From a virus (taxonomy: Duplodnaviria; Heunggongvirae; Uroviricota; Caudoviricetes): a stretch of DNA of 18,888 nucleotides. The stretch spans positions 1 through 18,888 of IMG/VR virus record IMGVR_UViG_3300014970_000019; one strand, 5' to 3'. A model generated the notes under the pieces. It saw only the letters and a program-made list of their open reading frames with translations, did no database searches and was not told the DNA's origin. A program made the position numbers and the translations under genes. Every line of letters starts with the position of its first letter. Positions within the stretch are counted from its first letter, which is position 1. Shown piece after piece: positions 2,921 through 18,888 of this stretch.

Positions 2921-2944
2921 GGTCACTCCAAGTGAACTTTTATC

Positions 2945-3045: not shown

Positions 3046-3267
3046 ATGAGACCTAACATTTCAATCACTCTTACCACGCCTCATGTGACTATTGAACGCT
3101 ATAGCGAGCTGACAGGGCTGTCCATCGATACCATCAATGACATGTTGGCTGACGGACGCCTTATCCGTCACCGTCTGCGCAAAGATAAAAAACGCGAAAA
3201 AGTGATGATCAACATAGCAGCCATGACCGTTGATGCGCTTTCAGAATGCAATCTAAACCTTAATTAG
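3046..3267 (+). CDS. Apl/Cox-like small DNA-binding excisionase/regulator
   Basis: 73-aa first gene of the rightward operon, opposite cI, in the position of 186 apl / P2 cox. RBS gagga at 3031-3035. Assignment is by position and size rather than a recognised motif. Confidence 0.55.
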
Positions 3268-3299
3268 TTCGATTCTGAAATACATCAGAGGCATTGACC

Positions 3300-3809: not shown

Positions 3810-3816
3810 GGTGCTT

Positions 3817-4017
3817 ATGCTGACGAAAGAACCATCATTTGCATCGCTGCTGGTAAAACAAAGTCCGGCAATGCACTACGGTCACGGCTGGATCATGGGG
3901 GAGGATGGTAAACGCTGGCATCCGTGCCGTTCACAAGATGAATTGCTGGCAGAACTATCTACGAAAAAACGGGGGAACAAATGGCTATTGAAGGCGCTGC
4001 GGCGACTGTTCCATTAA
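3817..4017 (+). CDS. Hypothetical early protein (66 aa; Fil-like position)
   Basis: ATG at 3817 with RBS gaggtg upstream. The track ORF 3787-4017 is trimmed to this internal start. Confidence 0.45.
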   Translation: MLTKEPSFASLLVKQSPAMHYGHGWIMGEDGKRWHPCRSQDELLAELSTKKRGNKWLLKALRRLFH

Positions 4018-4322
4018 GCCCCGGTGAACGCCTGAGTGGACTTAATCACATAGCGGAATTAAGGGCGAAAGTTTTTGGCCTGAATATTGAGTCAGAGCTT
4101 GAGCGGTTTATTAAAGATATGCGTGATCCACGGGATATCAATAATGAACAAAATAAACGGGCACTGGCTGCTATATTCTTTATGGCAAAAATTCCGGCTG
4201 AACGTCATAGCATCAGCATTAATGAGCTGACCACTGACGAAAAGCGGGAGCTGATTAAAGCAATGAATCATTTTCGTGCAGTGGTGAGCTTATTTCCCAG
4301 ACGGCTAACCATGCCGAATTAA
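3981..4322 (+). CDS. Hypothetical early protein (113 aa)
   Basis: ATG at 3981 with RBS ggggga 5 nt upstream. Overlaps the previous ORF by 37 nt in a different frame. Confidence 0.5.
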   Translation: MAIEGAAATVPLSPGERLSGLNHIAELRAKVFGLNIESELERFIKDMRDPRDINNEQNKRALAAIFFMAKIPAERHSISINELTTDEKRELIKAMNHFRAVVSLFPRRLTMPN

Positions 4323-4389
4323 CCAACTAATGAAATTAATGGCGTAAACCCGCCGGGCATCCCTTTATCTAAATTCAGGAGAATTGATT

Positions 4390-4623
4390 ATGCGTAATAT
4401 TGAAACCCTCACGACTAAAACCGGACCGGATGACGCAGGGCTTAATATTTTACTGACAGAGGCTCGTCTGGAAGAACGCCGGGCAAGGGCTGAAGCAATG
4501 GCAGCTCGCCTTGATCGCCTGGCGTGTCATATCACATCCCGCCAGCTAAACCACGTCGAAGCGGCAGAACTGCTGCGTGTGACCGCTGAAGCAATCCAGA
4601 ACGAAGCGCAGGAGATCCACTAA
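4390..4623 (+). CDS. Hypothetical early protein (77 aa)
   Basis: ATG at 4390 with RBS aggag at 4377-4381. Its stop overlaps the start of the next gene (TAATG). Confidence 0.5.
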   Translation: MRNIETLTTKTGPDDAGLNILLTEARLEERRARAEAMAARLDRLACHITSRQLNHVEAAELLRVTAEAIQNEAQEIH

Positions 4624-4850
4624 TGGCTGATGCAATGGATCTCGTACAGCAGCGCGTTGAAGAAGAACGCCAGCGCCATATCCGTGCTGCCCGTGCCAAA
4701 ACACCGGGCGTGTCTCGCGTGCTTTGTATTGAATGTGAAGCGCCAATTCCGCCAGCACGCCGCCGCGCCATTCCAGGAGTGCAGCTTTGCATTACCTGCC
4801 AGGAAATCGCAGAGCTGAAAGGTAAACATTACAACGGAGGTGCTGTATGA
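4623..4850 (+). CDS. TraR/DksA-family C4 zinc-finger protein
   Basis: CIECEAP-x16-CITCQ gives a C-x2-C-x17-C-x2-C spacing at the C-terminus of a 75-aa protein, characteristic of phage TraR/DksA-like proteins in P2-family early regions. Confidence 0.75.
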   Translation: MADAMDLVQQRVEEERQRHIRAARAKTPGVSRVLCIECEAPIPPARRRAIPGVQLCITCQEIAELKGKHYNGGAV

Positions 4851-5704
4851 GCACCATCCTGAAATGGGCGGGAAATAAAACCGCCATTATGTCCGAACTG
4901 AAAAAATACCTTCCTGCTGGCCCGCGACTGGTTGAACCTTTCGCGGGTTCTTGTGCTGTGATGATGGCGACGGATTACCCCAGCTATCTGGTTGCGGATA
5001 TTAATCCTGATTTAATCAACCTCTATAAAAAGATTGCCGCTGATTGCGAAGCGTTTATATCTCGTGCCAGAGTTTTATTTGAGGAAGCAAACAGTGAGCT
5101 GGCTTATTACAACATAAGACAGGAGTTTAATTACTCAACTGAAATTACTGATTTCATGAAGGCGATATATTTCCTGTATCTCAATCGTCACGGTTACCGT
5201 GGTTTATGTCGCTATAACAAGAGCGGGCATTTCAACATTCCCTACGGTAATTATAAAAATCCGTATTTCCCTGAAAAAGAAATTCGCGCATTTGCAGAGA
5301 AAGCCCCGCGGGCAACGTTTATCTGCACGAGCTTTGATGAAACGCTGGCGATGTTGAAGGCGGGGGATGTGGTGTATTGCGATCCGCCTTATGACGGTAC
5401 GTTTTCCGGCTATCACACTGATGGTTTCACTGAAGATGACCAGTATCACCTGGCATCCGTTCTTGAACATCGAGCATCTGAAGGACATCCGGTCATTGTT
5501 TCTAACAGTGACACATCCCTGATCCGTTCGCTGTATCGCAATTTCACTCACTACTACATCAAGGCAAAACGCAGCATCGGCGTGTCGGCTGGCGAGAGTA
5601 AATCTGCAACAGAAATCATTGCTGTTTCCGGGGCGCGCTGCTGGGTGGGATTTGATCCTTCGCGTGGCGTGGATAGTTCTGCTGTGTACGAGGTGCGTGT
5701 ATGA
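4847..5704 (+). CDS. dam: DNA adenine methyltransferase (Dam-like N6-MTase)
   Basis: N-terminal SAM-binding motif ([11 protein letters not shown]) and catalytic DPPY motif (CDPPYDG). About 285 aa. Start overlaps the TraR stop (ATGA). Confidence 0.85.
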
Positions 5705-8115
5705 GTCATGCCGATATGAGCGACTCTAGCGGCTTTAACGAGGCCGCTGCAGCATTTTCATGGAACGGCCCGAAAAAGGCCATAAACCCTTATCTGGACC
5801 CGGCGGAAGTTGCGCCGGTTTCTGCGCTTTCAAACCTGATCACTCTGTATGCTGCCGATAACGAGCAGGAACAGCTGCGCCGCGAGGAATTGAGTGAACA
5901 GGTCTGGGAGCGTTATTTCTTTAATGAATCCCGTGATCCTGTCCAGCGCGAAATGGAGCAGGATAAGCTCATTAGTCGGGCAAAGCTGGCGCATGAGCAG
6001 CAGCGTTTTAACCCGGACATGGTCATTCTGGCGGACGTCAGCGCCCAGCCCACCCACATCAGCAAGCCGCTGATGCAAAGTATCGAATACTTCTGCAGCC
6101 TTGGCAGGCCAAAGGCTTATTCCCGCTATTTGCGTGAGACGATTAAGCCATGTCTGGAGCGACTGGATTGTGTACGCGACAGTCAGCTATCTACTTCTTT
6201 CCGTTTTATGGCAAGCCATCAAGGGCTGGAGGGCCTGCTGATCCTGCCTGAAATGAGTCAGGATCAGGTGAAACGCCTGTCCACCCTGGTAGCTGCGCAT
6301 ATGAGCATGTGTCTTGAGGCCGCTTGTGGTGATTTGTATACCAACGATGACGTAAAGCCAGAAGAAATCCGCAAGACATGGGAAAAGGTGGCAGCGGAAA
6401 CCCTGCGTCTGGATGTTATCCCGCCTGCGTTTGAGAAACTTCGTCGGAAAAGAAACCGCCGCAAACCTGTGCCCTATGAACTCATTCCGGGTTCGCTGGC
6501 ACGTATGCTTTGCGCCGACTGGTGGTATCGAAAATTGTGGAAGATGCGTTGCGAATGGCGGGAAGAGCAGTTGCGTGCTGTCTGTCTGGTCAGCAAAAAA
6601 GCATCTCCCTATGTCAGCTATGAAGCAGTGACGCATAAACGTGAGCAGCGCCGCAAGTCGCTGGAGTTTTTCCGTTCTCATGAACTGGTGAACGAAGACG
6701 GAGACACGCTGGATATGGAAGATGTGGTAAACGCCAGCAGCAGCAACCCGGCACATCGCCGCAATGAGATGATGGCCTGCGTTAAAGGTCTGGAGCTTAT
6801 CGCGGAAATGCGCGGTGACTGCGCCGTTTTCTACACCATCACATGTCCGTCACGTTTCCATTCCACGCTCAATAACGGCAGGCCCAACCCGACCTGGACA
6901 AATGCGACGGTAAGACAAAGCAGCGATTATCTGGTCGGCATGTTTGCTGCATTTCGTAAGGCGATGCACAAAACCGGGTTGCGCTGGTATGGCGTACGGG
7001 TGGCTGAGCCGCACCATGACGGTACTGTGCACTGGCATCTCATGTGTTTCATGCGCAAAAAAGACCGCCGCGCCATTACTGCATTGTTGCGTAAGTTTGC
7101 CATCCGTGAAGACCGCGAGGAGCTGGGCAATAACACGGGCCCACGCTTTAAGTCTGAGCTGATAAACCCACGCAAAGGAACGCCGACAAGCTACATCGCA
7201 AAATACATCAGTAAGAACATTGACGGGCGTGGTCTGGCTAACGAGATCAGCAAGGAAACGGGTAAATCCCTGCGTGATAACGCCGAATACGTTAATGCCT
7301 GGGCGTCTCTGCATCGTGTTCAGCAGTTCCGCTTCTTTGGTATTCCGGGGCGCCAGGCTTACCGTGAACTTCGCTTGCTGGCTGGTCAGGCGGCAAGGCA
7401 ACAGGGTGACAAAAAAGCAGGTGCGCCGGTACTGGATAACCCGCGCCTTGATGCCATCCTGGCTGCTGCTGATGCTGGTTGTTTTGCCACCTACATCATG
7501 AAGCAGGGCGGCGTACTGGTTCCCCGCAAATATCACCTCATCAGAACCGCTTATGAAATCAACGAAGAGCCAACCGCCTATGGCGATCACGGTATTCGTA
7601 TTTATGGCATCTGGTCACCCATTGCAGAGGGCAAGATCTGCACTCATGCAGTGAAGTGGAAAATGGTTCGTAAGGCCGTTGACGTTCAGGAGGCGGCAGC
7701 CGACCAGGGCGCTTGCGCCCCTTGGACTCGTGGCAATAACTGTCCCCTTGCTGAAAATTTGAACCAACAGGAGAAAGATAAATCAGCTGATGGGGACACC
7801 AGAACGGATATTACCCGCATGGATGACAAGGCGTTGCACGATTATCTGCACAGTATGAGCAAAAAAGAGCGCCGGGAACTGGCAGCAAGGTTACGCCTGG
7901 TTAAGCCGAAACGGCGTAAAGACTACAAACAGCGAATTACAGATCATCAGCGACAGCAGCTCGTCTATGAACTGAAGTCCAGAGGATTTGATGGCAGCGA
8001 GAAAGAGGTCGATTTACTCCTTCGCGGTGGCAGTATTCCGTCAGGAGCAGGCCTGCGTATCTTCTATCGGAACCAGCGTTTGCAGGAAGATGATAAGTGG
8101 CGAAACCTGTATTAA
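5701..8115 (+). CDS. A: Rolling-circle replication initiation endonuclease (P2 gpA-like)
   Basis: 804-aa protein with an HxH metal-binding motif ([10 protein letters not shown]) and downstream Tyr residues (YIAKYISK), typical of P2 A / HUH endonucleases. Start overlaps the dam stop (ATGA). Confidence 0.9.
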
Positions 8116-8207
8116 TTACGCGGGTTAACAATTCGTGCTCTTAATAATACCAGGCATATCAGGCTGATGAACGTAAAAAAACGTTTTACATCAGTAAGAT
8201 TATTATA

Positions 8208-8227
8208 TACTGTAAATATAAACAGTG
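8208..8227. promoter_or_regulatory. LexA (SOS) box TACTGTAAATATAAACAGTG
   Basis: CTGT-N8-ACAG palindrome with an AT-rich centre (CTGT at 8210-8213, ACAG at 8222-8225), about 40 bp upstream of the 8268 ORF and the DinI-like gene. It overlaps AT-rich -10-like sequence. Confidence 0.6.
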
Positions 8228-8267
8228 ATTATATATACAGTATTGCTTTGGTGTCATAGGAGGAAAG

Positions 8268-8456
8268 ATGCAGGACTATTTTTTGGAGTCTTTGAAGCTC
8301 CAGCGCATTGATTTTTTTCTTAAGCTTGTAGCGGCTAGTGAGTGTAGTGATGAAGAGAAGGGGCTGGCTCTGCAGTGGGTTTCTGAACTGACAGATGAAC
8401 TCATGGCAAAAATCAGAACCCACGAATACAACCGCTCAATGGATGTCATCAGCTGA
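8268..8456 (+). CDS. Small hypothetical protein (62 aa), first gene of the SOS-controlled module (possible Tum N-terminal-like antirepressor part)
   Basis: Strong RBS aggagg at 8258-8263 with ATG at 8268. Lies downstream of the LexA box, and its stop overlaps the RBS of the DinI-like gene. Confidence 0.5.
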   Translation: MQDYFLESLKLQRIDFFLKLVAASECSDEEKGLALQWVSELTDELMAKIRTHEYNRSMDVIS

Positions 8457-8466
8457 GGTGACTTTT

Positions 8467-8700
8467 ATGCGCATTGAAATAATGATCGATAAAGAGCAGA
8501 AGATTAGCCAGTCTACACTGGACGCCCTTGAATCCGAGCTTTACCGCAATCTGCGCCCCCTGTATCCCAAAACGGTAATTCGTATTCGCAAAGGTAGCTC
8601 TAACGGTGTGGAACTGACCGGACTGCAACTGGACGAAGAAAGAAAACAAGTGATGAAAATTATGCAGAAGGTGTGGGAAGACGACAGCTGGCTGCATTAA
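8467..8700 (+). CDS. DinI-family protein (phage Tum C-terminal/DinI-like)
   Basis: 77 aa starting MRIEIMIDKEQKIS and ending ...MQKVWEDDSWLH, which resembles the DinI pattern (MRIEV...; acidic C-terminus with W). RBS gaggtg upstream. Start trimmed from the track ORF 8395-8700. Confidence 0.8.
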   Translation: MRIEIMIDKEQKISQSTLDALESELYRNLRPLYPKTVIRIRKGSSNGVELTGLQLDEERKQVMKIMQKVWEDDSWLH

Positions 8701-8835
8701 GAAACGTTGCTGGCGTCTGAACTTGTTTCTGGCGTCAGCAAGGTTGAACAACGAGCCCTTGCGAGGCGTTAGCTCTGTAGTGCATGTCTATGCCGCATGA
8801 GATCGCATGATCGTTTGAGGATCGTTTTTGCTAAG

Positions 8836-8859
8836 GCCCGCCAGAACTGGCGGGCTTTT
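8836..8859 (+). terminator. Rho-independent terminator
   Basis: Perfect GC-rich stem gcccgccag / ctggcgggc (8836-8844 and 8847-8855) with a 2-nt loop, followed by TTTT (8856-8859). Confidence 0.7.
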
Positions 8860-8904
8860 GCGTAGATCATGCACCTGCATGAAAACCACTACATAAAGCG
8901 GGCA

Positions 8905-8923
8905 GGCGTGGCGGGGATACGAG
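8905..8923. other. cos-like sequence (candidate cohesive-end site or remnant)
   Basis: ggcgtggcggggatacgag. The first 13 nt match the 186/P2 cohesive-end 19-mer as I recall it (GGCG[T/A]GGCGGGGAAAGCA[T/C]). It sits between the tum-like module and the portal-proximal region, where cos is expected. Confidence 0.35.
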
Positions 8924-9003
8924 CGCGCGCTGACATCGTTAAGTATTGACATATCAGATGTTTAAATAGGAAAATTACCAAAATCCAGAAAAAAGAAAAG
9001 AAT

Positions 9004-10152
9004 ATGAAGAAGTTAACTGCGAGACAAAGAGAGATTGACGTAAAACGCTCGATAAAGTTACGACAAGGACGTGCTAAAGTTAGAAAAAAAGGTAAATCAT
9101 TTCACTATAATGTTGAATGGCGTAAGGCTAACTATTGGATTGAAGAACAATCAAAAAATGGATTAGATGTACAATTTGTAAGTAAAAAAAAGAAAGGGTT
9201 AATTCTAACTTTACCTTCTGAAATGAATTTTTCTACACACTACGATGTTACTGTTCAGCATATTAATGCGATTCGAATGTTATCAGAGAGAAAAGGATTG
9301 CCTAATGCAGGTTATCAATTAGCATCTGTTAATTTTTGTAATTTGAAGAAAACATCGACATCTGCAGCTCTTGTGTTAACTGCAGAGTTATCTAAATGGG
9401 ATGATGCGATTAGGCAGAGGTTGACTCCAAAAATAGACGGTTGGGATAAAAATGTTCTACGTAATTTCTATGAATTGGGGTTCTTTGATTTATTCAAAAA
9501 AAGCAGGGATATAAAATTAAATTTTAATGATGAGTATTCAAAAATAAAAGGTAAGCGATTTGTAAAATATCTTAAAGGAAAGTGTGGGGAAATTAAGAAA
9601 ACAAAAGTATTAAAAGAGGAGATTATTAAATTAGTTGGTGAGTCTATTGAAAAATGGACTTTCTTACATGGGGGCCTAAGTGAGGCTATTACCAATGTTT
9701 CTCATCATGCATATCCTTCTGATTGCGGATATAAAGAATATGATAAGAACTGGTATCTAACAGGATCTTATCATTTAGAAAGTAAGGAATTGAAGATAGT
9801 TTTTTATGATCAGGGTGTTGGTATCCCTAAAACTTTACCTGCATCAAAAGTTTGGGAAAAGGCATTAAATGTATTAGCATCAATTCCTGTATTGGAGCGA
9901 TATCGTGATGAAGCACTCTTGAAAGCTGCGGTAGAGTTGGATAGGACAAGTACAGAAGAGGGAGATCGTGGTAAAGGCCTACAGGATCTACTTGAGTTTA
10001 TTAAACAAAGAGAAAATGGTTATTTATCAATCATGAGCCTTAAGGGACTTTATAAACACTCAATGAATCAAGGTAATACAAAAATAAAAACTAAGAGTTT
10101 TGCATCCCCAATCTATGGTACACTAATAACTTGGAGTGTATCTCTTGATTGA
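9004..10152 (+). CDS. Cargo gene 1: protein with C-terminal GHKL (HATPase_c) RsbW/SpoIIAB-like kinase/ATPase domain and Lys-rich N-terminal domain of unknown function
   Basis: 382-aa ORF in a strongly AT-rich island. N-box-like LSEAITNVSHHAY (about aa 226-238), G1-box-like YDQGVGIP (about aa 268-275) and G2-box-like GDRGKGLQDL (about aa 320-329), in the order and spacing of GHKL ATPases. Family assignment is by motif, not by search. Confidence 0.65.
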   Translation: MKKLTARQREIDVKRSIKLRQGRAKVRKKGKSFHYNVEWRKANYWIEEQSKNGLDVQFVSKKKKGLILTLPSEMNFSTHYDVTVQHINAIRMLSERKGLPNAGYQLASVNFCNLKKTSTSAALVLTAELSKWDDAIRQRLTPKIDGWDKNVLRNFYELGFFDLFKKSRDIKLNFNDEYSKIKGKRFVKYLKGKCGEIKKTKVLKEEIIKLVGESIEKWTFLHGGLSEAITNVSHHAYPSDCGYKEYDKNWYLTGSYHLESKELKIVFYDQGVGIPKTLPASKVWEKALNVLASIPVLERYRDEALLKAAVELDRTSTEEGDRGKGLQDLLEFIKQRENGYLSIMSLKGLYKHSMNQGNTKIKTKSFASPIYGTLITWSVSLD

Positions 10153-10166
10153 GATGGAGGTTTAAT

Positions 10167-10580
10167 ATGAAAAATCTAGAAATTAATATAGGGAAAGAGT
10201 TTTCTTCTACTCCTTCAGGACGTTTCTATTCTGATATGACAGATAGCAGCGGCGAACAGTTTAGAGAGGAGCTTTTATGGCCTCGCTTACAGTTGCTTAA
10301 AGAAAAGCAAAAGATCGACATTATTTTGGATGATGACGTTGAAGGTTATGGTTCTTCTTTCCTCGTTGAAGGTTTTGCCGGTATAGTAAAATATGGATAT
10401 ATGGATAAACAACAACTATTAAGTAAACTTGAGTTAATTCAGAGAGATCCTGATTTTGCTTTGTTTAAGAGAAAAATAATACAATATATTAACGAGGCAG
10501 TGTTTGATTCAAAGGTTTATGAAAGTACCAAACCTATTTATTTGTCTAAGTTGTTGACGCAAAAAACACGTAAGGAGTAA
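10167..10580 (+). CDS. Cargo gene 2: small STAS-like / DUF4325-like protein (putative partner of gene 1)
   Basis: 137 aa from ATG 10167, with RBS ggagg at 10156-10160 lying inside the end of gene 1 (translational coupling). The motif IDIILDDDVEGYGSSFLVEGFAGIV resembles STAS/DUF4325 cores that pair with HATPase proteins. The track ORF starts at a TTG at 10149. Confidence 0.6.
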   Translation: MKNLEINIGKEFSSTPSGRFYSDMTDSSGEQFREELLWPRLQLLKEKQKIDIILDDDVEGYGSSFLVEGFAGIVKYGYMDKQQLLSKLELIQRDPDFALFKRKIIQYINEAVFDSKVYESTKPIYLSKLLTQKTRKE

Positions 10581-10585
10581 AGCAA

Positions 10586-11230
10586 ATGGAGCCCAATTAT
10601 AATTATCATTATATGATGAGTAATAATGAGCTTTATTTTAGGGCGGGTTATGATGCTCAGCAATATGGGGTTGTTTTTTCTCATTCGGCTGTTGATAATG
10701 TCGACTTGATACATATTATCAATGGTGGTTTTTCATCTGTTGCAGAAGCTATTAGTAACTCAGGAAACACCACACTTTCTGATGGGATTATACTTGCATT
10801 AGCAGGTGCGTTGAGTGCTTTTTTCTTTAATTTGATTCAAAAAGGAATTGACGCTAAGGCAAAACGTCTCACCAAATCTGGTGAAGCAATGTTATCCTTG
10901 ATAAATGAATTGGAGGATATTGCAGTACGTTATTGGGTCAGAGGGCACGATTCATCTTGTGCTGATAATGAAAGCAATATTTGTGATGAGATTAATATCA
11001 AAGCCATGTTAATGACCTTGGATAAAAATATTAGGTTTATGGTTGATAATTTACCGTTAAAAAACAAGTCTTTAAATAAAAATAAGCTGGAGAAATTTTC
11101 TTCTGATATTTATGATTTGGCATCTGGTGAAGATTTCGAAGCAGAGGTTAGGCCTCCCAATAAAACAAAGGCCTTTGCTATATCGAAAAAATGTAGTGAA
11201 GCAAAAGCCATCATTCTTGGTTTGATTTAA
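10586..11230 (+). CDS. Cargo gene 3: hypothetical protein (214 aa) with a hydrophobic putative transmembrane segment
   Basis: Strong RBS aaggag at 10572-10577 with ATG at 10586. Hydrophobic stretch GIILALAGALSAFFFNLI around aa 67-84. AT-rich codon usage like genes 1 and 2. No family recognised. Confidence 0.6.
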   Translation: MEPNYNYHYMMSNNELYFRAGYDAQQYGVVFSHSAVDNVDLIHIINGGFSSVAEAISNSGNTTLSDGIILALAGALSAFFFNLIQKGIDAKAKRLTKSGEAMLSLINELEDIAVRYWVRGHDSSCADNESNICDEINIKAMLMTLDKNIRFMVDNLPLKNKSLNKNKLEKFSSDIYDLASGEDFEAEVRPPNKTKAFAISKKCSEAKAIILGLI

Positions 11231-12255
11231 AAACGGTAATCCTCAAAGTTAATTACTGTTATGTTTAACCAAATATTTAGCTCTGTTATTCTTTTCTGAA
11301 GAATTTCTAATTCATTTTTTACGAATACTTTGGCAGCTTTCTCCACATCCCCAAACCCCCCAACATTATTAGGCATTATCCCCATCATTTGCGGCGGCAC
11401 TCGGTGTGCTGCCATCATGTCATCGCGGCTGACATTTTTGATATTCAGAAATTCATCCTTCGCCGCGACTTCTGACAGAGGAATGATCTGAAGCCCGTCC
11501 TTTTTGCCGTTAGGCGAGTACATAAACAGATTGCGGAAGTTGCCAGGGCCTTTGGCGCTTTTCATCGCATTGCGGAGGTTGTTCACATCCTCCTGGTTTT
11601 GCGCGGCATCGGTCATGTACATGATAAAGCCCGCATGACTGCCGTTAATGTAATACTTGCGACGGAACAGCGTGGCGGACTCGTTGAGCAGGGCAGACGG
11701 AATGGCAGAAAGATAACCGGGCAGGCCGTAGATCTCCTGATTAATATCCGGTTCCATTAGGTGAAAAATGCTGCCTTTCGTGAACTGATACGGTTGCGTG
11801 GTCATGCCGTATTGCACAAACCAGTAGGTATCCAGATCTAATCCGCGTCGGGTGTATTTTGCCAGGGCAGGTTCAAGGGCGATCACTTCACCGAAGCGGT
11901 TCGTGCGTTTCTCTAGGTAGGCGTTACCAAATACCAGATAGTCCTGCACAAAACGTGAAAACGCCTGCTGGCTGAGCAGCGGATGAGGGATGTAGGTGCT
12001 GGTCAGTATGTTGCACTTTACGGCAATCGGTGAGCTGTGGTGCACGGCGGCGCGAAAGGTTCGCGCCAGCCCGTCGAAACTCACTGGTGGCTCATACCAG
12101 CGGTCCATCTGTACGCATTCCACATAGTCCAGTAATTCGCGGCGGTCCAGAACAGGAACGGGATCACCGAAGCTGAATGCTTCGGCTGAAGTTTGGTTTT
12201 TATGCAGGATCTGATTCGTCGCCGCAGCGCGGTTTTTCTTACTCTTTCCCATCAA
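11227..12255 (-). CDS. Q: Portal protein (P2 gpQ-like)
   Basis: 342 aa, close to the size of P2 Q. It follows the terminase fragment in operon order P then Q on the minus strand. Its stop overlaps the convergent stop of cargo gene 3. Confidence 0.8.
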   Translation of the reverse strand: MMGKSKKNRAAATNQILHKNQTSAEAFSFGDPVPVLDRRELLDYVECVQMDRWYEPPVSFDGLARTFRAAVHHSSPIAVKCNILTSTYIPHPLLSQQAFSRFVQDYLVFGNAYLEKRTNRFGEVIALEPALAKYTRRGLDLDTYWFVQYGMTTQPYQFTKGSIFHLMEPDINQEIYGLPGYLSAIPSALLNESATLFRRKYYINGSHAGFIMYMTDAAQNQEDVNNLRNAMKSAKGPGNFRNLFMYSPNGKKDGLQIIPLSEVAAKDEFLNIKNVSRDDMMAAHRVPPQMMGIMPNNVGGFGDVEKAAKVFVKNELEILQKRITELNIWLNITVINFEDYRF

Positions 12256-12911
12256 AAAATCTCCACAATATTGCTGGTATTGGCGGATTCGCCCTGCAGC
12301 GGTTCGTTAAACAGTGCGTGCATTGTTGCCCAGGCCAGATCGGCATGGCTGGCTTCTTCGCTGCGGCTGGCTTCATAGGTTGGGCGGTTGCCGCTGGCGG
12401 TGGTGGCGCGACGGATTGCCATAAATGACTGCGCTATGTCGGTGTGTCCGGCGTCAAACTCCAGACGACGGTGACTGATAATGTCGTAGGCCTTGAGTAC
12501 CAGGGCGTTTTTAACGTTGGGGTTGTAGACAAACTCCCGGACGGCTGGAAAAAACGCTTTCACGTTCTCGTAAACCCCGTGGCCGACACCTGTCGAGTCG
12601 ATGCCGATGTAGGTCACGTTGTACTGCTCGGTCAGTTTTTTGATGGCGTCAGCCTGGGCGCGGAAGTCCATCCCGCGCCACTGGTGACGCTCAAGAATGC
12701 GGAACTTACCACCCGGCACGGCTGGCGGTGCCACCACCACGCATCCGGCACTGTCGCCGTTCTGCGTACCTTTTGCCGGGTCATAACCGATCCACACTTC
12801 GCGCCAGCCAAACGGGCGCAGGGCCAGAGCATGAAAGTCGGTCCAGACTTCCCAACTGTCCACCATGCACGCCTGCAGCTCGCTGAGCGGAAACCAGAAC
12901 GACGTCACCAC
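12252..12911 (-). pseudogene. P: Terminase large subunit (gpP-like), C-terminal fragment only; 5'-truncated
   Basis: Immediately upstream of Q with an overlapping stop/start (ATGA), but only about 219-245 codons are open, against roughly 590 aa for P2 P. Identity as the terminase nuclease domain rests on operon position and the IGIDSTGVGHG motif. There is no credible start, and the frame runs into FI coding sequence on the opposite strand. Confidence 0.7.
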
Positions 12912-13308
12912 GCTTGTGCGTAAAGACGGTTTCCGCTTCTGGGGTTCCCGCTGCCTGAGTGATGACCCGCTCTTTGCCTTCGAAAACTACACCCGCACGG
13001 CGCAGGTGCTGATGGACACGATGGCAGAAGCACACATGTGGGCGGTGGATAAACCGCTTAACCCGTCGCTGGCCCGCGACATTATCGAAGGTATCCGCGC
13101 CAAAATGCGCAGCCTGGTCAGTCAGGGCTATCTCATTGGTGGTGATTGCTGGCTGGATGAGTCGGTGAACGACAAAGACACGCTGAAAGCCGGAAAACTC
13201 ACCATCGACTACGACTACACGCCAGTGCCGCCACTTGAAAACCTGATGCTGCGTCAGCGCATCACCGATCAGTACTTGGTGAATTTCGCCAGCCAGGTCA
13301 GCGCGTAA
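12835..13308 (+). pseudogene. FI: Tail sheath protein (gpFI-like), C-terminal fragment only; 5'-truncated
   Basis: Open frame from an in-frame stop at 12832-12834 to TAA at 13306-13308, at most about 157 codons, against about 396 aa for P2 FI. It sits immediately upstream of FII. The C-terminus ...[27 protein letters not shown] is sheath-like. Confidence 0.7.
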
Positions 13309-13317
13309 GGGGACAAC

Positions 13318-13833
13318 ATGGCTTTACCACGCAAATTAAAACACCTGAACCTGTTTAACGACGGGAACAACTGGCAGGGGATCGTTGAGTCGCTGACGCT
13401 GCCGAAATTTACCCGCAAATATGAGAAGTATCGCGGCGGCGGAATGCCGGGTGCGGTGGATGTGGATCTGGGGCTTGATGACAGTGCGCTGGATACAGAA
13501 TTTTCCATTGGTGGTACTGAATTGCTGCTGTTTAAACAGATGGGTAAAGCCACGGTGGATGGCATCCAGCTGCGCTTTACCGGCTCTATTCAGCGTGACG
13601 ATACCGGGGAAGTGCAGGCCGTGGAGCTTGTCGTGCGTGGACGTCACAAAGAAGTGGATTCCGGCGAGTGGAAGACGGGCGAAAGCAACACCACCAAAGT
13701 GACCAGTACCAACAGCTACGCGAAGCTGACCATCAATGGTGAGGTGCTCTATGAAGTGGACCTTATCAACATGGTGGAAATTGTGGACGGTGTGGACCTG
13801 ATGGAAGCGCACCGCAACGCCCTCGGCCTCTGA
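13318..13833 (+). CDS. FII: Tail tube protein (gpFII-like)
   Basis: 171 aa starting MALPRKLKHLNLF, matching P2 FII in size and N-terminus. RBS aagggga upstream. Confidence 0.9.
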   Translation: MALPRKLKHLNLFNDGNNWQGIVESLTLPKFTRKYEKYRGGGMPGAVDVDLGLDDSALDTEFSIGGTELLLFKQMGKATVDGIQLRFTGSIQRDDTGEVQAVELVVRGRHKEVDSGEWKTGESNTTKVTSTNSYAKLTINGEVLYEVDLINMVEIVDGVDLMEAHRNALGL

Positions 13834-13887
13834 TATATCTGAACGGCGCGGGATACCGCGCCAGAACCCAATTGACAGGACAGCAAA

Positions 13888-14190
13888 ATGAGCGATAAGC
13901 AGACTGAAAAGACCATTCAACTGGATACCCCCATCAAGCGCGGTAAAACAGAAATCACCGAAATTGTGCTGCGTAAACCGCAGTCCGGTGCGCTGCGCGG
14001 TACACGCCTGCAGGCCATTATGGATATGGATGTAAACGCGATGATGACCGTGATCCCCCGCATCTCCAGTCCGGCACTGACTGCACAGGAAATTGCAGAG
14101 ATGGACCCGGCAGATCTCACTGCCATGTCGGTTGAGTTTGTCACTTTTTTGTTGAAGAAGTCGGTGCTTGCCGGTTTACCGACAGCCTGA
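13888..14190 (+). CDS. E: Tail assembly chaperone gpE
   Basis: 100-aa ORF between FII and the tape measure gene. It contains the TTTTTTG slippery heptamer near its 3' end. Confidence 0.8.
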   Translation: MSDKQTEKTIQLDTPIKRGKTEITEIVLRKPQSGALRGTRLQAIMDMDVNAMMTVIPRISSPALTAQEIAEMDPADLTAMSVEFVTFLLKKSVLAGLPTA

Positions 14191-14324
14191 CGGTTGACGA
14201 TCTGGTGGCAGATATCGCCACCATTTTTCACTGGCCGCCATCCGTTACTGACGTTATGCCGCTGACCGAAGTGCTGGAATGGCGGTATAAAGCGATTCAG
14301 AGAAGCGGGGCCAACGATGAGTGA
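13888..14324 (+). CDS. gpE+E' extended product via programmed -1 ribosomal frameshift
   Basis: Slippery site T_TTT_TTG at 14145-14151. The -1 frame stays open from 14151 to TGA at 14322-14324 (ending ...ANDE), overlapping the start of T. This is the conserved P2 E/E' arrangement. Confidence 0.65.
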
Positions 14325-17300
14325 TAACAACCTGCGTCTGCAGGTCATTCTTAATGCGGTTGACAAGCTCACCCGCCCATTTCGATCTGCGCAGGCCAGT
14401 TCAAGAGAACTGGCTGCTGCTGTCAAAAAATCCCGCGATGCAATAAAGCAGCTTGATCAGGCCGGGAGCAGTCTGGACAGCTTCCGAAAGCTGCAGGCAG
14501 AAAATCAGAAATTAGGCGACAGGCTGAACTATGCCCGCCAGCGTGCAAATTTGCTCAGTCAGGAACTGGGAGCGATGGGGCCGCCTTCGCAACGTCAGGT
14601 TGTTGCTCTGGGCCGTCAACGGCTGGCTGTTCAGCGCCTGGAAGAACGCCAGAAAAAGCTGCAGCAGCAGACGGCGCTTGTGCGTGCTGAACTGTACCGG
14701 GCGGGAATTTCTGCGAAAGACGATGCGGGAGCAACTGCCCGTTTAGCCCGTGAAACATCACGTTATAACCAGGAACTTTCGAAACAGGAGGCGCGGCTGA
14801 AGCGACTGGGGGAAGCTCAGCGCAGGATGAATGCAGCGCGTGCCAGTTATGCCCGTTCGCTGGAGGTGCGTGATCGTATTGCAGGTGCCGGAGCCACCAC
14901 CACGGCTGCAGGGCTGGCAATGGGTGCGCCAGTGATGGCGGCAGTAAAAAGCTATACCAGCATGGAAGATGCCATGAAAGGTGTGGCAAAGCAGGTCAAT
15001 GGTCTGCGTGACGATAATGGCAACCGCACTGCACGTTTTTATGAAATGCAGGATGCCATCAAGGCTGCCAGCGAACAGTTGCCGATGGAAAACGGTGCGG
15101 TGGACTTCGCTGCACTGGTTGAAGGTGGTGCGCGCATGAACGTCGCAAACCCTGACGACAGCTGGGAAGATCAGAAACGTGACCTGCTGGCCTTCGCCAG
15201 TACGGCAGCAAAGGCGGCAACAGCCTTTGAGCTGCCAGCGGATGAACTGTCAGAAAGTCTGGGGAAAATCGCCCAGCTCTACAAAATCCCCACCCGCAAT
15301 ATTGAACAGCTCGGTGATGCGCTGAACTATCTGGATGATAACGCCATGTCGAAAGGGGCAGACATCATTGATGTGATGCAACGTCTGGGCGGTGTGGCTG
15401 ACCGTCTGGATTATCGTAAAGCGGCGGCGCTGGGTTCCACCTTCCTGACACTGGGCGCTGCGCCGGAGGTTGCAGCCAGTGCAGCAAACGCGATGGTGCG
15501 TGAATTGTCCATTGCCACCATGCAAAGCAAGAGTTTCTTTGAAGGGATGAATCTGCTGAAACTCAATCCTGAAGTGATTGAAAAGCAGATGACGAAGGAT
15601 GCGATGGGAACCATCCAGCGCGTGCTGGAGAAGGTAAACGCGCTGCCGCAGGACAAGCGCCTGTCTGCCATGACTATGTTGTTTGGTAAAGAGTTTGGCG
15701 ATGACGCGGCGAAACTGGCAAACAACCTGCCGGAACTGCAGCGTCAGTTAAAACTGACAGCGGGCAATGATGCGCTCGGCTCCATGCAGAAAGAATCCGA
15801 CATTAACAAGGATTCACTTTCTGCGCAGTGGTTGTTGGTCAAAACCGGAGCGCAGAACACCTTCAGCAGCCTGGGCGAAACGCTGCGCCAGCCGCTGATG
15901 GATATTCTGTACACGGTGAAAAGCGTCACGGGGGCGTTGCGTCGCTGGGTGGAAGCTAACCCGGAACTGACAGGCACACTGATGAAAGCATCGGCTGTTG
16001 TGGCTGCGGTTACCGTCGGCCTCGGCACCTTAGCGGTGGCGCTGGCTGCAGTGCTGGGGCCGCTGGCAGTGATCCGTCTGGGATTCTCTGTGTTGGGTAT
16101 CAAAACGTTATCTTCCGTTACGGCAGCAGTAACTCGAACCAGCAGCGCGTTGTCCTGGCTGGCTGGCGCACCACTGGCACTGCTGCGACGCGGGCTTGCT
16201 TCATCGGGCAACGCCGCAGGTTTACTTACTGCGCCGTTGTCGTCTTTGCGCCGCACGGCATCACTGACGGGAAATGTCCTGAAAACTGTAGCAGGTGCGC
16301 CGGTTGCACTTTTGCGGTCTGGATTATCCGGTTTACGTGCTGTTGCTGTGATGTTTATGAATCCTCTGGCGGTACTGCGCGGTGGACTGGCCGCCGCAGG
16401 CACGGTGCTGCGAGTACTGGCATCTGGTCCACTGGCGATGCTGCGCGTTGCCCTGTATGCCATATCTGGTCTGTTAGGTGCTCTGCTCAGTCCGATAGGT
16501 CTTGTGGTTACTGCACTGGCGGGCGTGGCGCTGGTTGTCTGGAAATACTGGCAACCCATCACCGCATTTCTCGGTGGCGTGGTGGAAGGATTCAAAGCGG
16601 CGGCAGGTCCCATCAGTGCAGCGTTCGAACCGCTTAAGCCCGTGTTCCAGTGGATTGGCGACAAAGTGCAGGCGCTGTGGGGCTGGTTTACTGATCTGCT
16701 GACGCCCGTTAAGTCGACCTCTGCCGAACTGCAGAGCGCAGCGGCAATGGGGCGGCGATTCGGGGAGGCACTGGCGGAAGGGCTGAATATGGTCATGCAT
16801 CCGCTGGACTCCCTGAAATCCGGCGTTTCCTGGTTGCTGGAGAAGCTCGGCATTGTCAGTAAAGAGGCCGCAAAGGCAAAACTGCCGGAAAGCGTGACGC
16901 GTCAGCAACCTGCGACGGTGAATGCAGACGGTAAAGTGATGATGCCATCGGGTGGTTTTCCATCATGGGGATATGGCTTTGCGGGGATGTATGACAGCGG
17001 CGGGTATATCCCGCGCGGGCAGTTTGGCATCGTCGGTGAAAACGGGCCGGAAATTGTTAACGGCCCGGCAAATGTGACCAGCCGGAGAAATACAGCTGCA
17101 CTGGCTGCCGTTGTTGCCGGAATGATGGGCGTTGCTGCCGCGCCAGCAGAGCTTCCACCGTTGCACCCTTTGGCACTTCCCGCGAAAGGTGGAGAAGCAA
17201 TTGTGAGTCGCGCAGCCACTGTGCCGCTCGTTCAACGGATTGAGGCACCGACGCAGATCATCATTCAGACGCAGCCAGGACAAAGTGCGCAGGATATTGC

Positions 17301-17394
17301 GCGGGAGGTGGCACGCCAGCTTGATGAACGTGAACGCAGGCTGAAGGCAAAAGCCAGGAGTAACTACAGCGATCAGGGGGGATACGACGCATGA
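14317..17394 (+). CDS. T: Tail tape measure protein (gpT-like)
   Basis: 1025 aa with a coiled-coil-like N-terminal half, a central block of Ala/Leu/Gly-rich hydrophobic repeats, and a C-terminal region. Position is after E/E'. Confidence 0.9.
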   Translation: MSDNNLRLQVILNAVDKLTRPFRSAQASSRELAAAVKKSRDAIKQLDQAGSSLDSFRKLQAENQKLGDRLNYARQRANLLSQELGAMGPPSQRQVVALGRQRLAVQRLEERQKKLQQQTALVRAELYRAGISAKDDAGATARLARETSRYNQELSKQEARLKRLGEAQRRMNAARASYARSLEVRDRIAGAGATTTAAGLAMGAPVMAAVKSYTSMEDAMKGVAKQVNGLRDDNGNRTARFYEMQDAIKAASEQLPMENGAVDFAALVEGGARMNVANPDDSWEDQKRDLLAFASTAAKAATAFELPADELSESLGKIAQLYKIPTRNIEQLGDALNYLDDNAMSKGADIIDVMQRLGGVADRLDYRKAAALGSTFLTLGAAPEVAASAANAMVRELSIATMQSKSFFEGMNLLKLNPEVIEKQMTKDAMGTIQRVLEKVNALPQDKRLSAMTMLFGKEFGDDAAKLANNLPELQRQLKLTAGNDALGSMQKESDINKDSLSAQWLLVKTGAQNTFSSLGETLRQPLMDILYTVKSVTGALRRWVEANPELTGTLMKASAVVAAVTVGLGTLAVALAAVLGPLAVIRLGFSVLGIKTLSSVTAAVTRTSSALSWLAGAPLALLRRGLASSGNAAGLLTAPLSSLRRTASLTGNVLKTVAGAPVALLRSGLSGLRAVAVMFMNPLAVLRGGLAAAGTVLRVLASGPLAMLRVALYAISGLLGALLSPIGLVVTALAGVALVVWKYWQPITAFLGGVVEGFKAAAGPISAAFEPLKPVFQWIGDKVQALWGWFTDLLTPVKSTSAELQSAAAMGRRFGEALAEGLNMVMHPLDSLKSGVSWLLEKLGIVSKEAAKAKLPESVTRQQPATVNADGKVMMPSGGFPSWGYGFAGMYDSGGYIPRGQFGIVGENGPEIVNGPANVTSRRNTAALAAVVAGMMGVAAAPAELPPLHPLALPAKGGEAIVSRAATVPLVQRIEAPTQIIIQTQPGQSAQDIAREVARQLDERERRLKAKARSNYSDQGGYDA

Positions 17395-17876
17395 TGATGG
17401 TGCTGGGATTGTACGTGTTTATGCTGCGCACCGTTCCGTATCAGGAACTGCAGTATCAACGCAGCTGGCGACATGCGGCAAACAGTCGGGTAAACCGACG
17501 TCCGTCCACGCAGTTTCTGGGACCGGAAAACGACATGCTGACGCTTTCCGGTGTTCTTATGCCGGAAATAACAGGTGGCAGGCTGTCGTTGCTGGCACTG
17601 GAGCAGATGGCAGAACAGGGGAAAGCATGGCCCCTGATTGAAGGCAGCGGCACGATTTACGGCATGTATGTGATTGAGGGACTGAATCAGACTAAAACGG
17701 AGTTTTTCCGCGACGGTATGCCGCGCCGGATTGAGTTCACCCTGTCGCTCAAACGAGTGGATGAATCCCTGTCCGATATGTTCGGTGATCTCAGTGCGCA
17801 ACTGAATAATCTGCAGGACACGGCAACGTCTGCCTTAAGCGATATCAGTAAAACGGTGGGAGGGCTGCTGTCGTGA
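17391..17876 (+). CDS. U: Tail protein gpU-like
   Basis: 161 aa, close to P2 U in size. Start overlaps the T stop (ATGA). Lies between T and D. Confidence 0.8.
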   Translation: MMMVLGLYVFMLRTVPYQELQYQRSWRHAANSRVNRRPSTQFLGPENDMLTLSGVLMPEITGGRLSLLALEQMAEQGKAWPLIEGSGTIYGMYVIEGLNQTKTEFFRDGMPRRIEFTLSLKRVDESLSDMFGDLSAQLNNLQDTATSALSDISKTVGGLLS

Positions 17877-18888
17877 ATTTCAGCTCTGAACTGCTTAACA
17901 AAGGCAACAAAACTCCCGCATTCAGCATCAGTATTGAGGGCAGGGATATCACCACTGTGCTGGATAACCGCCTGATGAGTTTGACGCTGACGGATAACCG
18001 GGGCTTTGAAGCGGACCAGCTTGATCTGGAGCTGGATGACGCTGACGGAAAAATCGTGCTGCCGCGCCGTGGTGCGGTTATTACGCTGGCGCTGGGCTGG
18101 AAGGGGCAGCCGCTTTTCCCGAAAGGGGCATTCACAGTGGACGAGATTGAACACACTGGCGCACCGGACCGCCTGACTATCCGGGCGCGAAGTGCTGATT
18201 TTCGGGAAACGCTGAATACCCGCCGTGAAAAATCGTGGCATAAGACCACCGTCGGGGAAGTGGTGAAGGAAATAGCCGCGCGGCACAAGCTGAAGATGGC
18301 ACTGGGTAAAGACCTGTCGGATAAGCCCGTGGAGCATATAGACCAGACTAATGAGAGTGACGGCAGTTTTCTGATGCGGCTGGCGCGCCAGTACGGTGCC
18401 ATCGCGTCGGTGAAAAATGGCAATCTGTTATTCATCCGGCAGGGACAGGGCAAAAGCGCCAGCGGTAAACCACTGCCGGTGATCTCAATCACACGTAAGG
18501 ACGGCGACAGTCACCGCTTTACCCTGGCAGATCGCGGAGCCTACACGGGCGTAATTGCCAGTTGGTTGCATACCCGCGAACCCGAGAAGAAAGAAAGCAC
18601 CACGGTGAAGCGTAAGCGCAGGACTAAGAAGCAGAAGAAAGAGCCGGAAGCGAAGCAGGGCGATTACCTGGTGGGTACGGATGAAAACGTGCTGGTACTT
18701 AATCGCACTTATGCCAACCGGAGCAACGCCGAACGGGCAGCGAAAATGCAGTGGGAACGCCTGCAACGCGGCGTTGCATCATTCTCGCTACAACTGGCGG
18801 AAGGGCGGGCAGATCTCTACACAGAAATGCCTGTGAAGGTCAGTGGCTTTAAACAGCCGATAGATGATGCGGAATGGACCATTACGAC
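17873..18888 (+). CDS. D: Tail protein gpD-like, 5' part (runs off window end)
   Basis: GTG start at 17873 overlapping the U stop. Translation VNFSSELLNKGNK... stays open to the window end (about 338 codons). Not in the ORF track because no stop lies within the window. Confidence 0.8.
   Translation, partial: MNFSSELLNKGNKTPAFSISIEGRDITTVLDNRLMSLTLTDNRGFEADQLDLELDDADGKIVLPRRGAVITLALGWKGQPLFPKGAFTVDEIEHTGAPDRLTIRARSADFRETLNTRREKSWHKTTVGEVVKEIAARHKLKMALGKDLSDKPVEHIDQTNESDGSFLMRLARQYGAIASVKNGNLLFIRQGQGKSASGKPLPVISITRKDGDSHRFTLADRGAYTGVIASWLHTREPEKKESTTVKRKRRTKKQKKEPEAKQGDYLVGTDENVLVLNRTYANRSNAERAAKMQWERLQRGVASFSLQLAEGRADLYTEMPVKVSGFKQPIDDAEWTIT

What the first reader, a model, noticed from the sequence alone, without database searches (positions are those of the whole stretch)
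12835..12990. Internal deletion junction: truncated terminase P fused back-to-back with truncated tail sheath FI
In P2-family genomes about 15 kb (O N M L X Y K R S V W J I H G, the lysis genes and the fibre genes) separate the 5' end of P from the 5' end of FI. Here the minus-strand P frame and the plus-strand FI frame overlap within about 150 bp, and each retains only its C-terminal third. The prophage therefore cannot make capsids, a baseplate or fibres. Despite this, it retains the immunity region, the SOS module and the cargo cassette, which fits selection for retained accessory functions.
Basis: partly seen in the sequence, partly recalled or inferred. Interest (0 to 1): 0.65.

Follow-up and report, generated by a model that had tools for sequence, protein, structure and literature searches.

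The report
Deletion scar in defective P2-like prophage
An E. coli P2-family prophage has lost about 13.9 kb of head, lysis, baseplate and fibre genes in a single deletion, which is ordinary prophage decay, but both ends of the scar lie close to break positions used in other decayed prophages of this family.

Summary
On the minus strand, homology to the terminase large subunit (gpP) ends at window 12894. On the plus strand, homology to the tail sheath (gpFI) begins at 12892. The two share 3 nt (AAC). Measured against the intact phage Cartapus, 13,875 bp are missing: the N-terminal 64% of P, then O, N, M, L, X, the lysis genes, R, S, V, W, J, I, H/G, the invertase, and the N-terminal 65% of FI. 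P' keeps only the nuclease domain and FI' only the C-terminal domain.

The junction is real. It recurs with 99.99-100% identical flanks in four other public assemblies. It is absent from 5,426 complete E. coli genomes. Every other prophage gene is full length and colinear, so this is one microhomology-mediated deletion and probably a recent one. Selection for the retained cargo is plausible but was not shown.

Side result: across 53 distinct deletion junctions collected from related prophages, end points coincide far more often than chance predicts (25 pairs within 1 nt against 0.7 expected). They often have different partners and sit in unrelated alleles. The window's P end lies in one such cluster, although that cluster comes from a biased sample. 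Its FI end is shared only with a gpM::FI' fusion known at protein level. I found no shared motif, hairpin or ori-like sequence, so the cause is unresolved.

The parts
12252..12894 (-). P' : 3' 643 nt of the terminase large-subunit gene (about 213 codons plus stop). It holds the nuclease (Terminase_6C) domain only. Open as a 219-aa ORF from GTG 12911, or a 204-aa ORF from ATG 12866.
   Evidence: Pfam. 96.3% identity to Cartapus 2251-2545. The exact 204-aa product is annotated on 170 or more public contigs.
12892..12894 (.). Deletion junction: 3-nt microhomology AAC shared by the two parental sequences (P ...GAGCGGAAAC|ACGG ; FI ...GTCTGCTGAAC|CAGAAC).
   Evidence: A natural intact P allele carrying GGAAAC is seen in L109.
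12892..13308 (+). FI' : 3' 417 nt of the tail sheath gene (138 codons plus stop), C-terminal domain only. The open ORF 12865-13308 adds 9 foreign residues read from antisense P.
   Evidence: Pfam. 97.7% identity to Cartapus from 16418 onwards. 99.8% identity to sheath genes of many E. coli.
11227..12255 (-). Q (portal), full length. Orphaned because the P promoter region is deleted.
   Evidence: Pfam Phage_portal. Colinear with Cartapus 959 onwards.
13318..18888 (+). Orphaned tail genes FII (13318-13833), E (13888-14190), E', T (14317-17394), U (17391-17876) and D (from 17873, cut by the window end). Their promoter upstream of FI is deleted.
   Evidence: Gene lengths equal those of intact relatives. 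L004 shows D at 366 aa, then ogr and ybjL beyond the window.
8780..8970 (.). cos region (the Cartapus genome ends meet at about window 8873-8877). Retained.
   Evidence: window 8780-8872 = Cartapus 33276-33368; window 8877-8970 = Cartapus 5-95. cos is annotated.
9004..11230 (+). Three-gene cargo in the cos-Q hotspot (382 aa, 143 aa, 214 aa). Retained and intact.
926..8700 (.). Retained early region: integrase, CI repressor, apl/cox-like gene, cII, fil, Dam, A (replication), LexA box at 8210-8225, orf62 and a DinI-like gene.
   Evidence: Annotations of homologous loci.

Best explanation
The window is a P2-family (Peduoviridae, Cartapus/186-like) prophage integrated between rcdA and ybjL of an E. 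coli lineage. It has suffered one illegitimate deletion of about 13.9 kb. The break in P and the break in FI were joined through a 3-nt microhomology (AAC). The joining route could be replication slippage, template switching, or end joining of a double-strand break; that step is inferred. The deletion removes the terminase ATPase domain, scaffold, capsid, small terminase, head completion, lysis, tail completion, baseplate, fibre and invertase genes, and two thirds of the sheath. It also removes the divergent P/O promoter region and the stretches upstream of V and FI, where P2's other late promoters lie (their identity as promoters is from knowledge of P2, not tested here). Q-P' and FI'-FII-E-T-U-D are therefore left back to back without a promoter and are expected to be silent. 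The element cannot form particles or lyse the cell. It keeps integrase, CI immunity, replication gene A, cos, the LexA-box/DinI-like module and the hotspot cargo. It should therefore behave as a stable, immune, cargo-carrying cryptic prophage that could at most be mobilised by a helper phage.
For: Only the C-terminal domains are present. Both flanks are colinear with an intact phage at 94-98% identity and the single discontinuity is Cartapus 2545|16418. The annotated content of the missing interval is given. A 3-nt overlap is seen and the parental alleles are documented. There is no IS, no repeat and no inserted DNA at the junction. The same junction occurs in four other assemblies that are 99.99-100% identical. 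All other genes have the same lengths as in intact relatives. No sigma-70-like promoter is found at the junction, and TGT-N12-ACA matches are at chance level. Other E. coli carry differently deleted prophages at the same rcdA-ybjL site, which shows that such decay is common.
Against: The true parent was not found. The best intact P alleles in hand differ at 13 or more of 591 nt, so the deletion size is measured on a proxy. Silence of the orphaned genes and loss of viability are inferred from gene content and were not measured. The four sibling contigs are essentially identical, so they may represent one clone sampled several times rather than independent confirmation of stability.
Confidence: 0.9

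Rival explanations
1. The break points were not random. The deletion joined two positions that are intrinsically prone to breakage or polymerase stalling in P2-like prophage DNA, for example strong gyrase cleavage sites joined by gyrase interface or subunit swapping, or another site-preferential nuclease. On this view microhomology only assisted the joining. This rival concerns the mechanism of the event, not the fact that a deletion occurred.
For: Pooling 53 distinct junctions from related prophages gives 97 ends that were not biased by the search. Of these, 25 pairs coincide within 1 nt against 0.70 expected (maximum 5 in 3000 simulations), and 31 of 97 ends fall in 12 shared sites. Shared ends have different partners and mostly unrelated alleles. 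Some sites serve as both left and right ends (16012, 17787, 19157, 19645). Four junctions with four different right-hand partners end within 5 nt of the window's P end (window, L010, L014, L015). The window's FI end coincides with a gpM::FI' fusion protein. Gyrase interface swapping as a route to illegitimate recombination is described in PMC11164529.
Against: The cluster at the window's P end comes from a look-up biased towards a 204-aa ORF. On its own it is only marginal (P about 0.04-0.06), and it did not appear among 8 junctions in an unbiased scan of 120 viral contigs. The FI coincidence rests on a protein sequence only and is absent from complete genomes. No shared k-mer at a fixed offset was found, nor hairpin enrichment, nor similarity to a site in gene A. 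The gyrase motif matrix could not be obtained. A few pairs (L008/L016, L007/L064) have near-identical alleles and could be sequential events.
Confidence: 0.35
2. The element is a domesticated prophage. The deletion was retained, and the early region plus cargo kept intact, because immunity, the SOS-linked module or the cargo benefit the host.
For: Deleted derivatives at this and other loci consistently keep int through A, the cargo, cos, Q and P' while losing late genes. The cos-Q position holds known or suspected defence genes in other prophages, including retron RT, TIR/Thoeris, AIPR and PDDEXK. The cargo proteins occur on 135-153 contigs.
Against: Useless late genes (Q, FII, E, T, U, D, ogr) are as intact as the cargo, so nothing distinguishes selected from unselected parts. 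The carriers found are one near-identical clone. The cargo has no PADLOC hit and only sub-threshold Pfam/NCBIfam hits. The sample of remnants was obtained through a P' protein, so retention of the left arm is partly built into the search.
Confidence: 0.25
3. The junction is an assembly chimera that joins two parts of an intact prophage.
For: The window appears to be a complete 18,888-bp metagenome contig, and metagenome assemblers can make chimeras.
Against: Four other assemblies from different records contain the identical junction within 4.8-11.3 kb of 99.99-100% identical sequence. The join shares only 3 nt, far below any assembler k-mer.
Confidence: 0.02
4. The order Q-P'-FI'-FII is native to a functional lineage, such as a satellite or a tailocin, rather than a deletion.
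For: None beyond the recurrence of truncated P' ORFs in databases.
Against: P' lacks the ATPase domain and FI' lacks the N-terminal and middle sheath domains. There are no capsid, baseplate, fibre or lysis genes anywhere in the window. Of 120 metagenome contigs carrying the FI anchor, 115 have the parental FI sequence upstream. P' ORFs elsewhere have many different neighbours.
Confidence: 0.02

Closest known systems
Escherichia phage Cartapus (NC_070909; Peduoviridae, Elveevirus) and related E. coli P2/186-like prophages
   Same: The same gene order and 94-98% nucleotide identity for cII through A, the DinI region, cos, Q, P' and FI' through D.
   Different: The window lacks Cartapus 2546-16420. 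It has a different integrase/CI allele (only about 72-74% patches) and a different cargo between cos and Q.
Other defective P2-like prophages in E. coli, most of them at the same rcdA-ybjL site, e.g. strain F829 (NZ_OY754443), WCHEC035123, Z1323CEC0017 and F1005
   Same: Internal deletions that truncate P and join it to late genes, with the early region, cargo, Q and ogr kept.
   Different: Different break points and partners (P|N, P|D, P|T), and several deletions in F829. None of the 5,426 complete genomes has the window's junction.
Cryptic prophages generated by microhomology-mediated (illegitimate) deletion, as a general class
   Same: A single discontinuity, 3-nt microhomology, no mobile element at the scar, and loss of lytic functions.
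   Different: Nothing distinctive in the event itself. The possible distinction is that the end points in this phage family recur.
P4-type satellites and R-type tailocins (considered and rejected)
   Same: Integrated elements that lack a full set of virion genes.
   Different: No sid/psu/delta-type or primase genes. No sheath N-domain, baseplate, fibres or lysis genes. The window has P2-type A, Q, T, U and D.

Membership tests
P2-family (Peduoviridae) prophage | Gene order int-CI-(cox/apl)-cII...A-cos-Q-P and FI-FII-E-T-U-D-ogr, with the corresponding Pfam families | tested here: met
   Pfam hits for Int, CI, CII (CP76), DinI, portal, Terminase_6C, sheath_1C, tube FII, TAC_7 and GpU. Colinear with Cartapus. 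D and ogr are present in the sibling contig L004.
P2-family (Peduoviridae) prophage | A complete morphogenetic and lysis module (O, N, M, L, X, Y, K, R, S, V, W, J, I, H, G) | tested here: not met
   None of these genes is in the window. The interval Cartapus 2546-16420 is absent. The element is a defective derivative, not a functional member.
Terminase large subunit (gpP) | N-terminal ATPase domain together with the C-terminal RNase H-like nuclease domain | tested here: not met
   Only Terminase_6C matches (residues 41-202 of the 219-aa ORF). The 375 N-terminal residues of the 588-aa protein are missing.
Contractile tail sheath (gpFI) | N-terminal and middle sheath domains together with the C-terminal domain | tested here: not met
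   Only Phage_sheath_1C matches. 138 of 390 residues are retained.
Microhomology-mediated illegitimate deletion | Both flanks colinear with an intact relative, a single discontinuity, a few shared bases at the joint, and no mobile element or long repeat | tested here: met
   Cartapus 2545|16418, AAC overlap, no inserted bases.
Microhomology-mediated illegitimate deletion | The molecular route (slippage, end joining or topoisomerase exchange) | not testable with these tools
   Sequence alone cannot separate these routes. The motif, hairpin and ori-similarity tests were negative or inconclusive.
Domesticated (selected) cryptic prophage | Purifying selection on retained genes relative to the neutral decay of others | not tested
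   Only one near-identical clone carries this junction, and all remaining genes are intact, including useless ones.
Anti-phage defence cargo in the P2 cos-Q hotspot | Match to a known defence family | tested here: not met
   No PADLOC hit. Only sub-threshold HATPase_c_2/RsbW-like hits (E 0.016-0.05) and a sub-threshold DUF4325 STAS-like hit (21.3 bits against a cut-off of 23). The position is the same as that of defence genes in other prophages.

The most novel reading that the evidence does not exclude
Decay of P2-like prophages in E. coli is not random erosion. It proceeds through a limited set of break-prone positions. In Cartapus coordinates these include about 2800, 3360, 4611, 15413, 16012, 16681, 17788, 19157, 19645, 19988 and 22170, and possibly 2545 and 2593. 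These positions are joined to one another in many combinations, in independent strains and alleles. The window's scar (2545|16418) would be one edge of that network. The cause would be a site-preferential DNA breakage or stalling process. Gyrase cleavage with interface swapping fits the pattern best, but it is untested.
Probability: 0.4. Interest if true: 0.6.

Novelty: new member of a known kind. Interest (0 to 1): 0.25.

Why it matters
The scar itself is routine. It documents how a P2-like prophage becomes a locked-in carrier of immunity and cargo genes, and it gives an exact breakpoint with 3-nt microhomology in a lineage seen in several public assemblies, at least one from human gut.

The wider point is the recurrence of end points. 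If it holds up in a phylogeny-aware census, prophage decay in this family would be shaped by a strongly non-uniform mutational process rather than by selection alone. That would change how gene retention in cryptic prophages is read as evidence of domestication. It would also offer a natural read-out of in vivo break hotspots in E. coli.

Tried and rejected
1. An exact junction pattern in GTDB species-representative genomes found nothing. A search spanning the junction in 5,426 complete E. coli genomes found none.

2. The FI-anchor scan of metagenomes gave four apparent new partners at the FI end. These were spurious 21-mer matches in unrelated genes that encode QNDVTTL.

3. Tests for the cause of the recurrent ends:
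- A shared k-mer within 8 nt gave only weak GATA/ATACC enrichment, not significant after correction.
- A shared k-mer at a fixed offset within 45 nt gave none.
- Hairpin energy on the retained, deleted or spanning side was not significant.
- Similarity to a common site in gene A (pseudo-ori) was not found.
- Similarity to a Chi site, invertase crossover sites, the IS10 target, Type I/III recognition sites and P2 cos was inspected by eye or from memory and not supported.
- CGAAG (a GAA mini-hairpin core) lies within 0-7 nt of the retained 5' end at 5-6 ends. This motif was found post hoc and is left as a lead.

4. Shared ancestry as the explanation for shared ends: carriers mostly have alleles as divergent as the background. 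L008/L016 and L007/L064 are nearly identical and may be sequential events.

5. The gyrase motif matrix (Sutormin et al., table DS10) and the paper on the P2 ori cleavage site were not retrievable.

A chimeric M|FI DNA query found no complete genome with that junction.

Full report
**What is in the window**

The 18,888-base window begins in the 3' part of rcdA (ybjK). It then runs through a P2-family prophage:
- integrase (926-2035, minus strand) and a 186-type CI repressor (2351-2926, minus strand)
- an apl/cox-like gene, cII, fil, Dam methylase and replication gene A (5701-8115)
- a perfect LexA box (8210-8225) in front of a 62-aa ORF and a DinI-like gene
- cos (about 8873-8877) and a three-gene cargo (9004-11230)
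- portal Q (11227-12255, minus strand)
- the two truncated ORFs of the finding
- FII, E, E', T, U and the first 338 codons of D

The closest sequenced phage is Escherichia phage Cartapus (Peduoviridae, Elveevirus). The window is colinear with it at 94-98% identity everywhere except the integrase/CI alleles, the cargo and one discontinuity. Homologous prophages in complete E. coli genomes sit between rcdA and ybjL. A sibling contig continues from the window's right end through D, ogr and ybjL.

**Check of the observation**

The minus-strand ORF 12252-12911 matches only the nuclease domain of the large terminase (Terminase_6C, E 2e-50). The plus-strand ORF 12865-13308 matches only the C-terminal sheath domain (E 3e-24). 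BLAST against Cartapus shows P homology ending at window 12894 (Cartapus 2545). FI homology begins at window 12892 (Cartapus 16418). Cartapus P is 588 aa and FI is 390 aa, so about 36% and 35% are retained.

The two ORFs overlap by 47 bp and the two homologies by 3 bp. The missing interval is 13,875 bp. It contains the 5' 64% of P, then O, N, M, L, X, holin, endolysin, spanin, R, S, one hypothetical gene, V, W, J, I, the fibre and fibre-assembly genes with their invertible segment, the invertase, and the 5' 65% of FI.

**The breakpoint**

The junction reads GCTGAGCGGAAAC|CAGAACGACG. Intact P alleles read GAGCGG(G/A)AAC|ACGGACG, and the GGAAAC variant occurs naturally in L109. Intact FI alleles read GTCTGCTGAAC|CAGAACG. 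The shared bases are AAC (window 12892-12894). There is no inserted DNA, IS or long repeat at the junction. This is the signature of illegitimate, microhomology-assisted joining. The molecular route cannot be read from the sequence.

**Is the junction real, and how widespread is it?**

No complete E. coli genome (0 of 5,426) and no GTDB species representative spans the junction. However, the exact 147-aa fusion ORF is on record. The junction is present in four other assemblies:
- Logan ERR13319223 (L004)
- ENA ERR526021, a human-gut assembly (L005)
- ENA ERZ27239673 (L006)
- OBZI01000540.1 (L202)

These are 99.99-100% identical to the window over 4.8-11.3 kb. A 3-nt join repeated in separate assemblies cannot be an assembler chimera. 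The near-identity means that one clone was sampled repeatedly.

**Consequences (inferred)**

The deletion removes everything needed for capsids, DNA packaging (terminase ATPase and small subunit), lysis, baseplate and fibres. It also removes the divergent P/O promoter region and the stretches upstream of V and FI, where P2's late promoters lie. That assignment is from knowledge of P2 and was not tested here. Q-P' and FI'-FII-E-T-U-D are left back to back. No sigma-70-like promoter is found at the join, and Ogr-type TGT-N12-ACA matches are at chance level. The orphaned genes are therefore expected to be silent. The element keeps integration, immunity, replication, cos and cargo functions.

**The selection claim**

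All remaining genes have the lengths seen in intact relatives. That includes the now useless Q, FII, E, T and U, and, in L004, D and ogr. Nothing separates 'selected' from 'unselected' parts, so the simplest reading is a single recent event. Deleted relatives do tend to keep the int-to-P' arm. That sample was retrieved through the P' protein, so the tendency is partly built into the search. Selection remains plausible but unshown.

**The cargo**

The 382-aa protein has only sub-threshold similarity to RsbW/SpoIIAB-type kinases (E 0.016-0.05). The 143-aa protein has a sub-threshold STAS-like DUF4325 hit. The 214-aa protein has no hit. None of the three matches PADLOC. In other prophages the same cos-Q position holds AIPR, retron-type RT, TIR/Thoeris, PDDEXK_GAPS4, AAA_15+RT and Hypoth_Ymh genes. 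A defence role is therefore a reasonable guess.

**Unexpected side result: recurrent break points**

Looking up the exact 204-aa P' ORF returned it on more than 170 contigs, with many different right-hand neighbours (FII', T, T', D', ogr, H', O) and different cargo. At nucleotide level the P ends cluster at Cartapus 2544-2548 and 2590-2593, each with several partners. That sample is biased towards 2520-2600. Within that range the first cluster alone is only marginal (P about 0.04-0.06), while the two clusters together give P about 0.001-0.003.

I therefore collected junctions in ways that do not depend on where the break lies. These were a P-anchor scan of viral contigs (120 contigs, 8 junctions), an FI-anchor scan of metagenomes, two further viral-contig scans, complete genomes, and the secondary junctions in the biased loci.

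Pooling gave 53 distinct events and 97 unbiased ends. Of these, 25 pairs coincide within 1 nt against 0.70 expected (maximum 5 in 3,000 simulations). In all, 31 ends fall in 12 shared sites (the first half alone is). Examples:
- Site 17788 is used five times (left partners 2526, 4238, 16012 and 16681, plus one junction that uses it as a left end).
- Site 15413 has three different partners.
- Site 22170 has three different P ends as partners.
- Sites 4611, 16681, 2800 and 3360 each have two or three partners.
- Sites 16012, 17787, 19157 and 19645 are used as both left and right ends.

Carriers of a shared end mostly have alleles as divergent as the background, which argues for independent events. 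L008/L016 and L007/L064 are near-identical and may be sequential. Microhomology at these joins is 0-5 nt.

**Relevance to the window**

The window's P end (2545) lies in the 2544-2548 cluster, which has four different partners but comes from the biased sample. It was not seen in the unbiased 8 junctions. The window's FI end coincides with the junction of a 292-aa gpM::FI' fusion protein (LLLQTLEL|NQNDVTTL), whose inferred DNA join uses GCTG immediately next to the window's AAC. That join was confirmed only at protein level and is absent from complete genomes.

**Attempts to explain the recurrence**

I found no common k-mer near the cuts or at a fixed offset. There was no enrichment of hairpins on either side and no similarity to a common site in gene A. 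Weak signals remain as leads only. These are GATA/ATACC near cuts, a 5'-TA at retained ends (seen by eye, not formally tested), and CGAAG just inside 5-6 retained ends.

A network of preferred sites that can each act as a left or right end, joined with little homology, is what gyrase-mediated illegitimate recombination by interface or subunit swapping would predict (PMC11164529). I could not test this, because the published gyrase matrix was not retrievable.

**Verdict**

The finding is correct and is an ordinary case of prophage inactivation by a single microhomology-mediated deletion. It is real, it is carried by one clone found in several public assemblies, and it is not present in complete reference genomes. 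Interest in the scar itself is low. The recurrence of deletion end points across this phage family is statistically strong in my sample and mechanistically unexplained. It is the part worth following up.

Noticed in passing
Related loci L002, L007-L016, L031, L037, L048, L061, L064, L109, L120, L126, L137-L139, L171, L198, L237, L253, L268, L291, L305, L315, L355, L359, L381, L406, L420 (Cartapus coordinates): Deletion end points in E. coli-type P2-like prophages recur at the same nucleotides with different partners and in unrelated alleles. 25 pairs coincide within 1 nt against 0.7 expected, and 12 shared sites hold 31 of 97 ends. No shared motif, hairpin or ori-like sequence was found.
   Followed up: partly
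window 9004-11230 (+): Three-gene cargo between cos and Q. The 382-aa protein has sub-threshold RsbW/SpoIIAB-type HATPase similarity, the 143-aa protein has a sub-threshold STAS-like DUF4325 hit, and the 214-aa protein has no hit. This suggests a partner-switching-like pair in a slot that holds defence genes in other prophages. None has a PADLOC hit. The exact or near-exact proteins are on about 135-153 E. coli / E. marmotae contigs.
   Followed up: partly
window 8210-8225, 8268-8456, 8470-8700: A perfect LexA-box consensus (CTGTAAATATAAACAG) lies upstream of a 62-aa ORF and a DinI-like gene (Pfam DinI, E 6.5e-23). Only this one perfect match exists in the window, and the one-mismatch count overall is at chance level.
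   Followed up: partly
L002 (E. coli F829, NZ_OY754443), L137, L138 (rcdA-ybjL site); L139 (flanks not shown): Complete genomes carry differently decayed P2-like prophages, at the rcdA-ybjL site where the flanks are visible. F829 has at least three separate deletions (P|N, holin|invertase, FI|T) and a frameshifted T.
   Followed up: partly
proteins P0002 (292 aa) and P0028 (287 aa), from the clusters of the window's FI' and P' ORFs: In-frame fusion ORFs created by other deletions: gpM::FI' (9 contigs) and an alternative tail-fibre segment fused to P' at Y/QNLL (Cartapus about 2593). Both join at or next to recurrent break positions.
   Followed up: partly
window 1-18888: The window appears to be a whole metagenome contig, since the longest contig recorded for its cargo protein is 18,888 bases. 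Its right end cuts D at codon 338. Sibling contig L004 supplies the rest (D, ogr, ybjL, ybjM, grxA).
   Followed up: yes
L155, L209, L238, L255 (metagenome contigs): The 21-mer CCAGAACGACGTCACCACGCT (encoding QNDVTTL) occurs exactly in four unrelated genes of other organisms. This is a reminder that exact 21-mer hits in very large collections need checking.
   Followed up: yes
L003 (E. coli FDAARGOS_1248, NZ_CP069542): The late genes FI through ogr lie directly upstream of an integrase-to-P stretch. This looks like two P2-like prophages in tandem (or a permuted arrangement), with a frameshifted portal.
   Followed up: no
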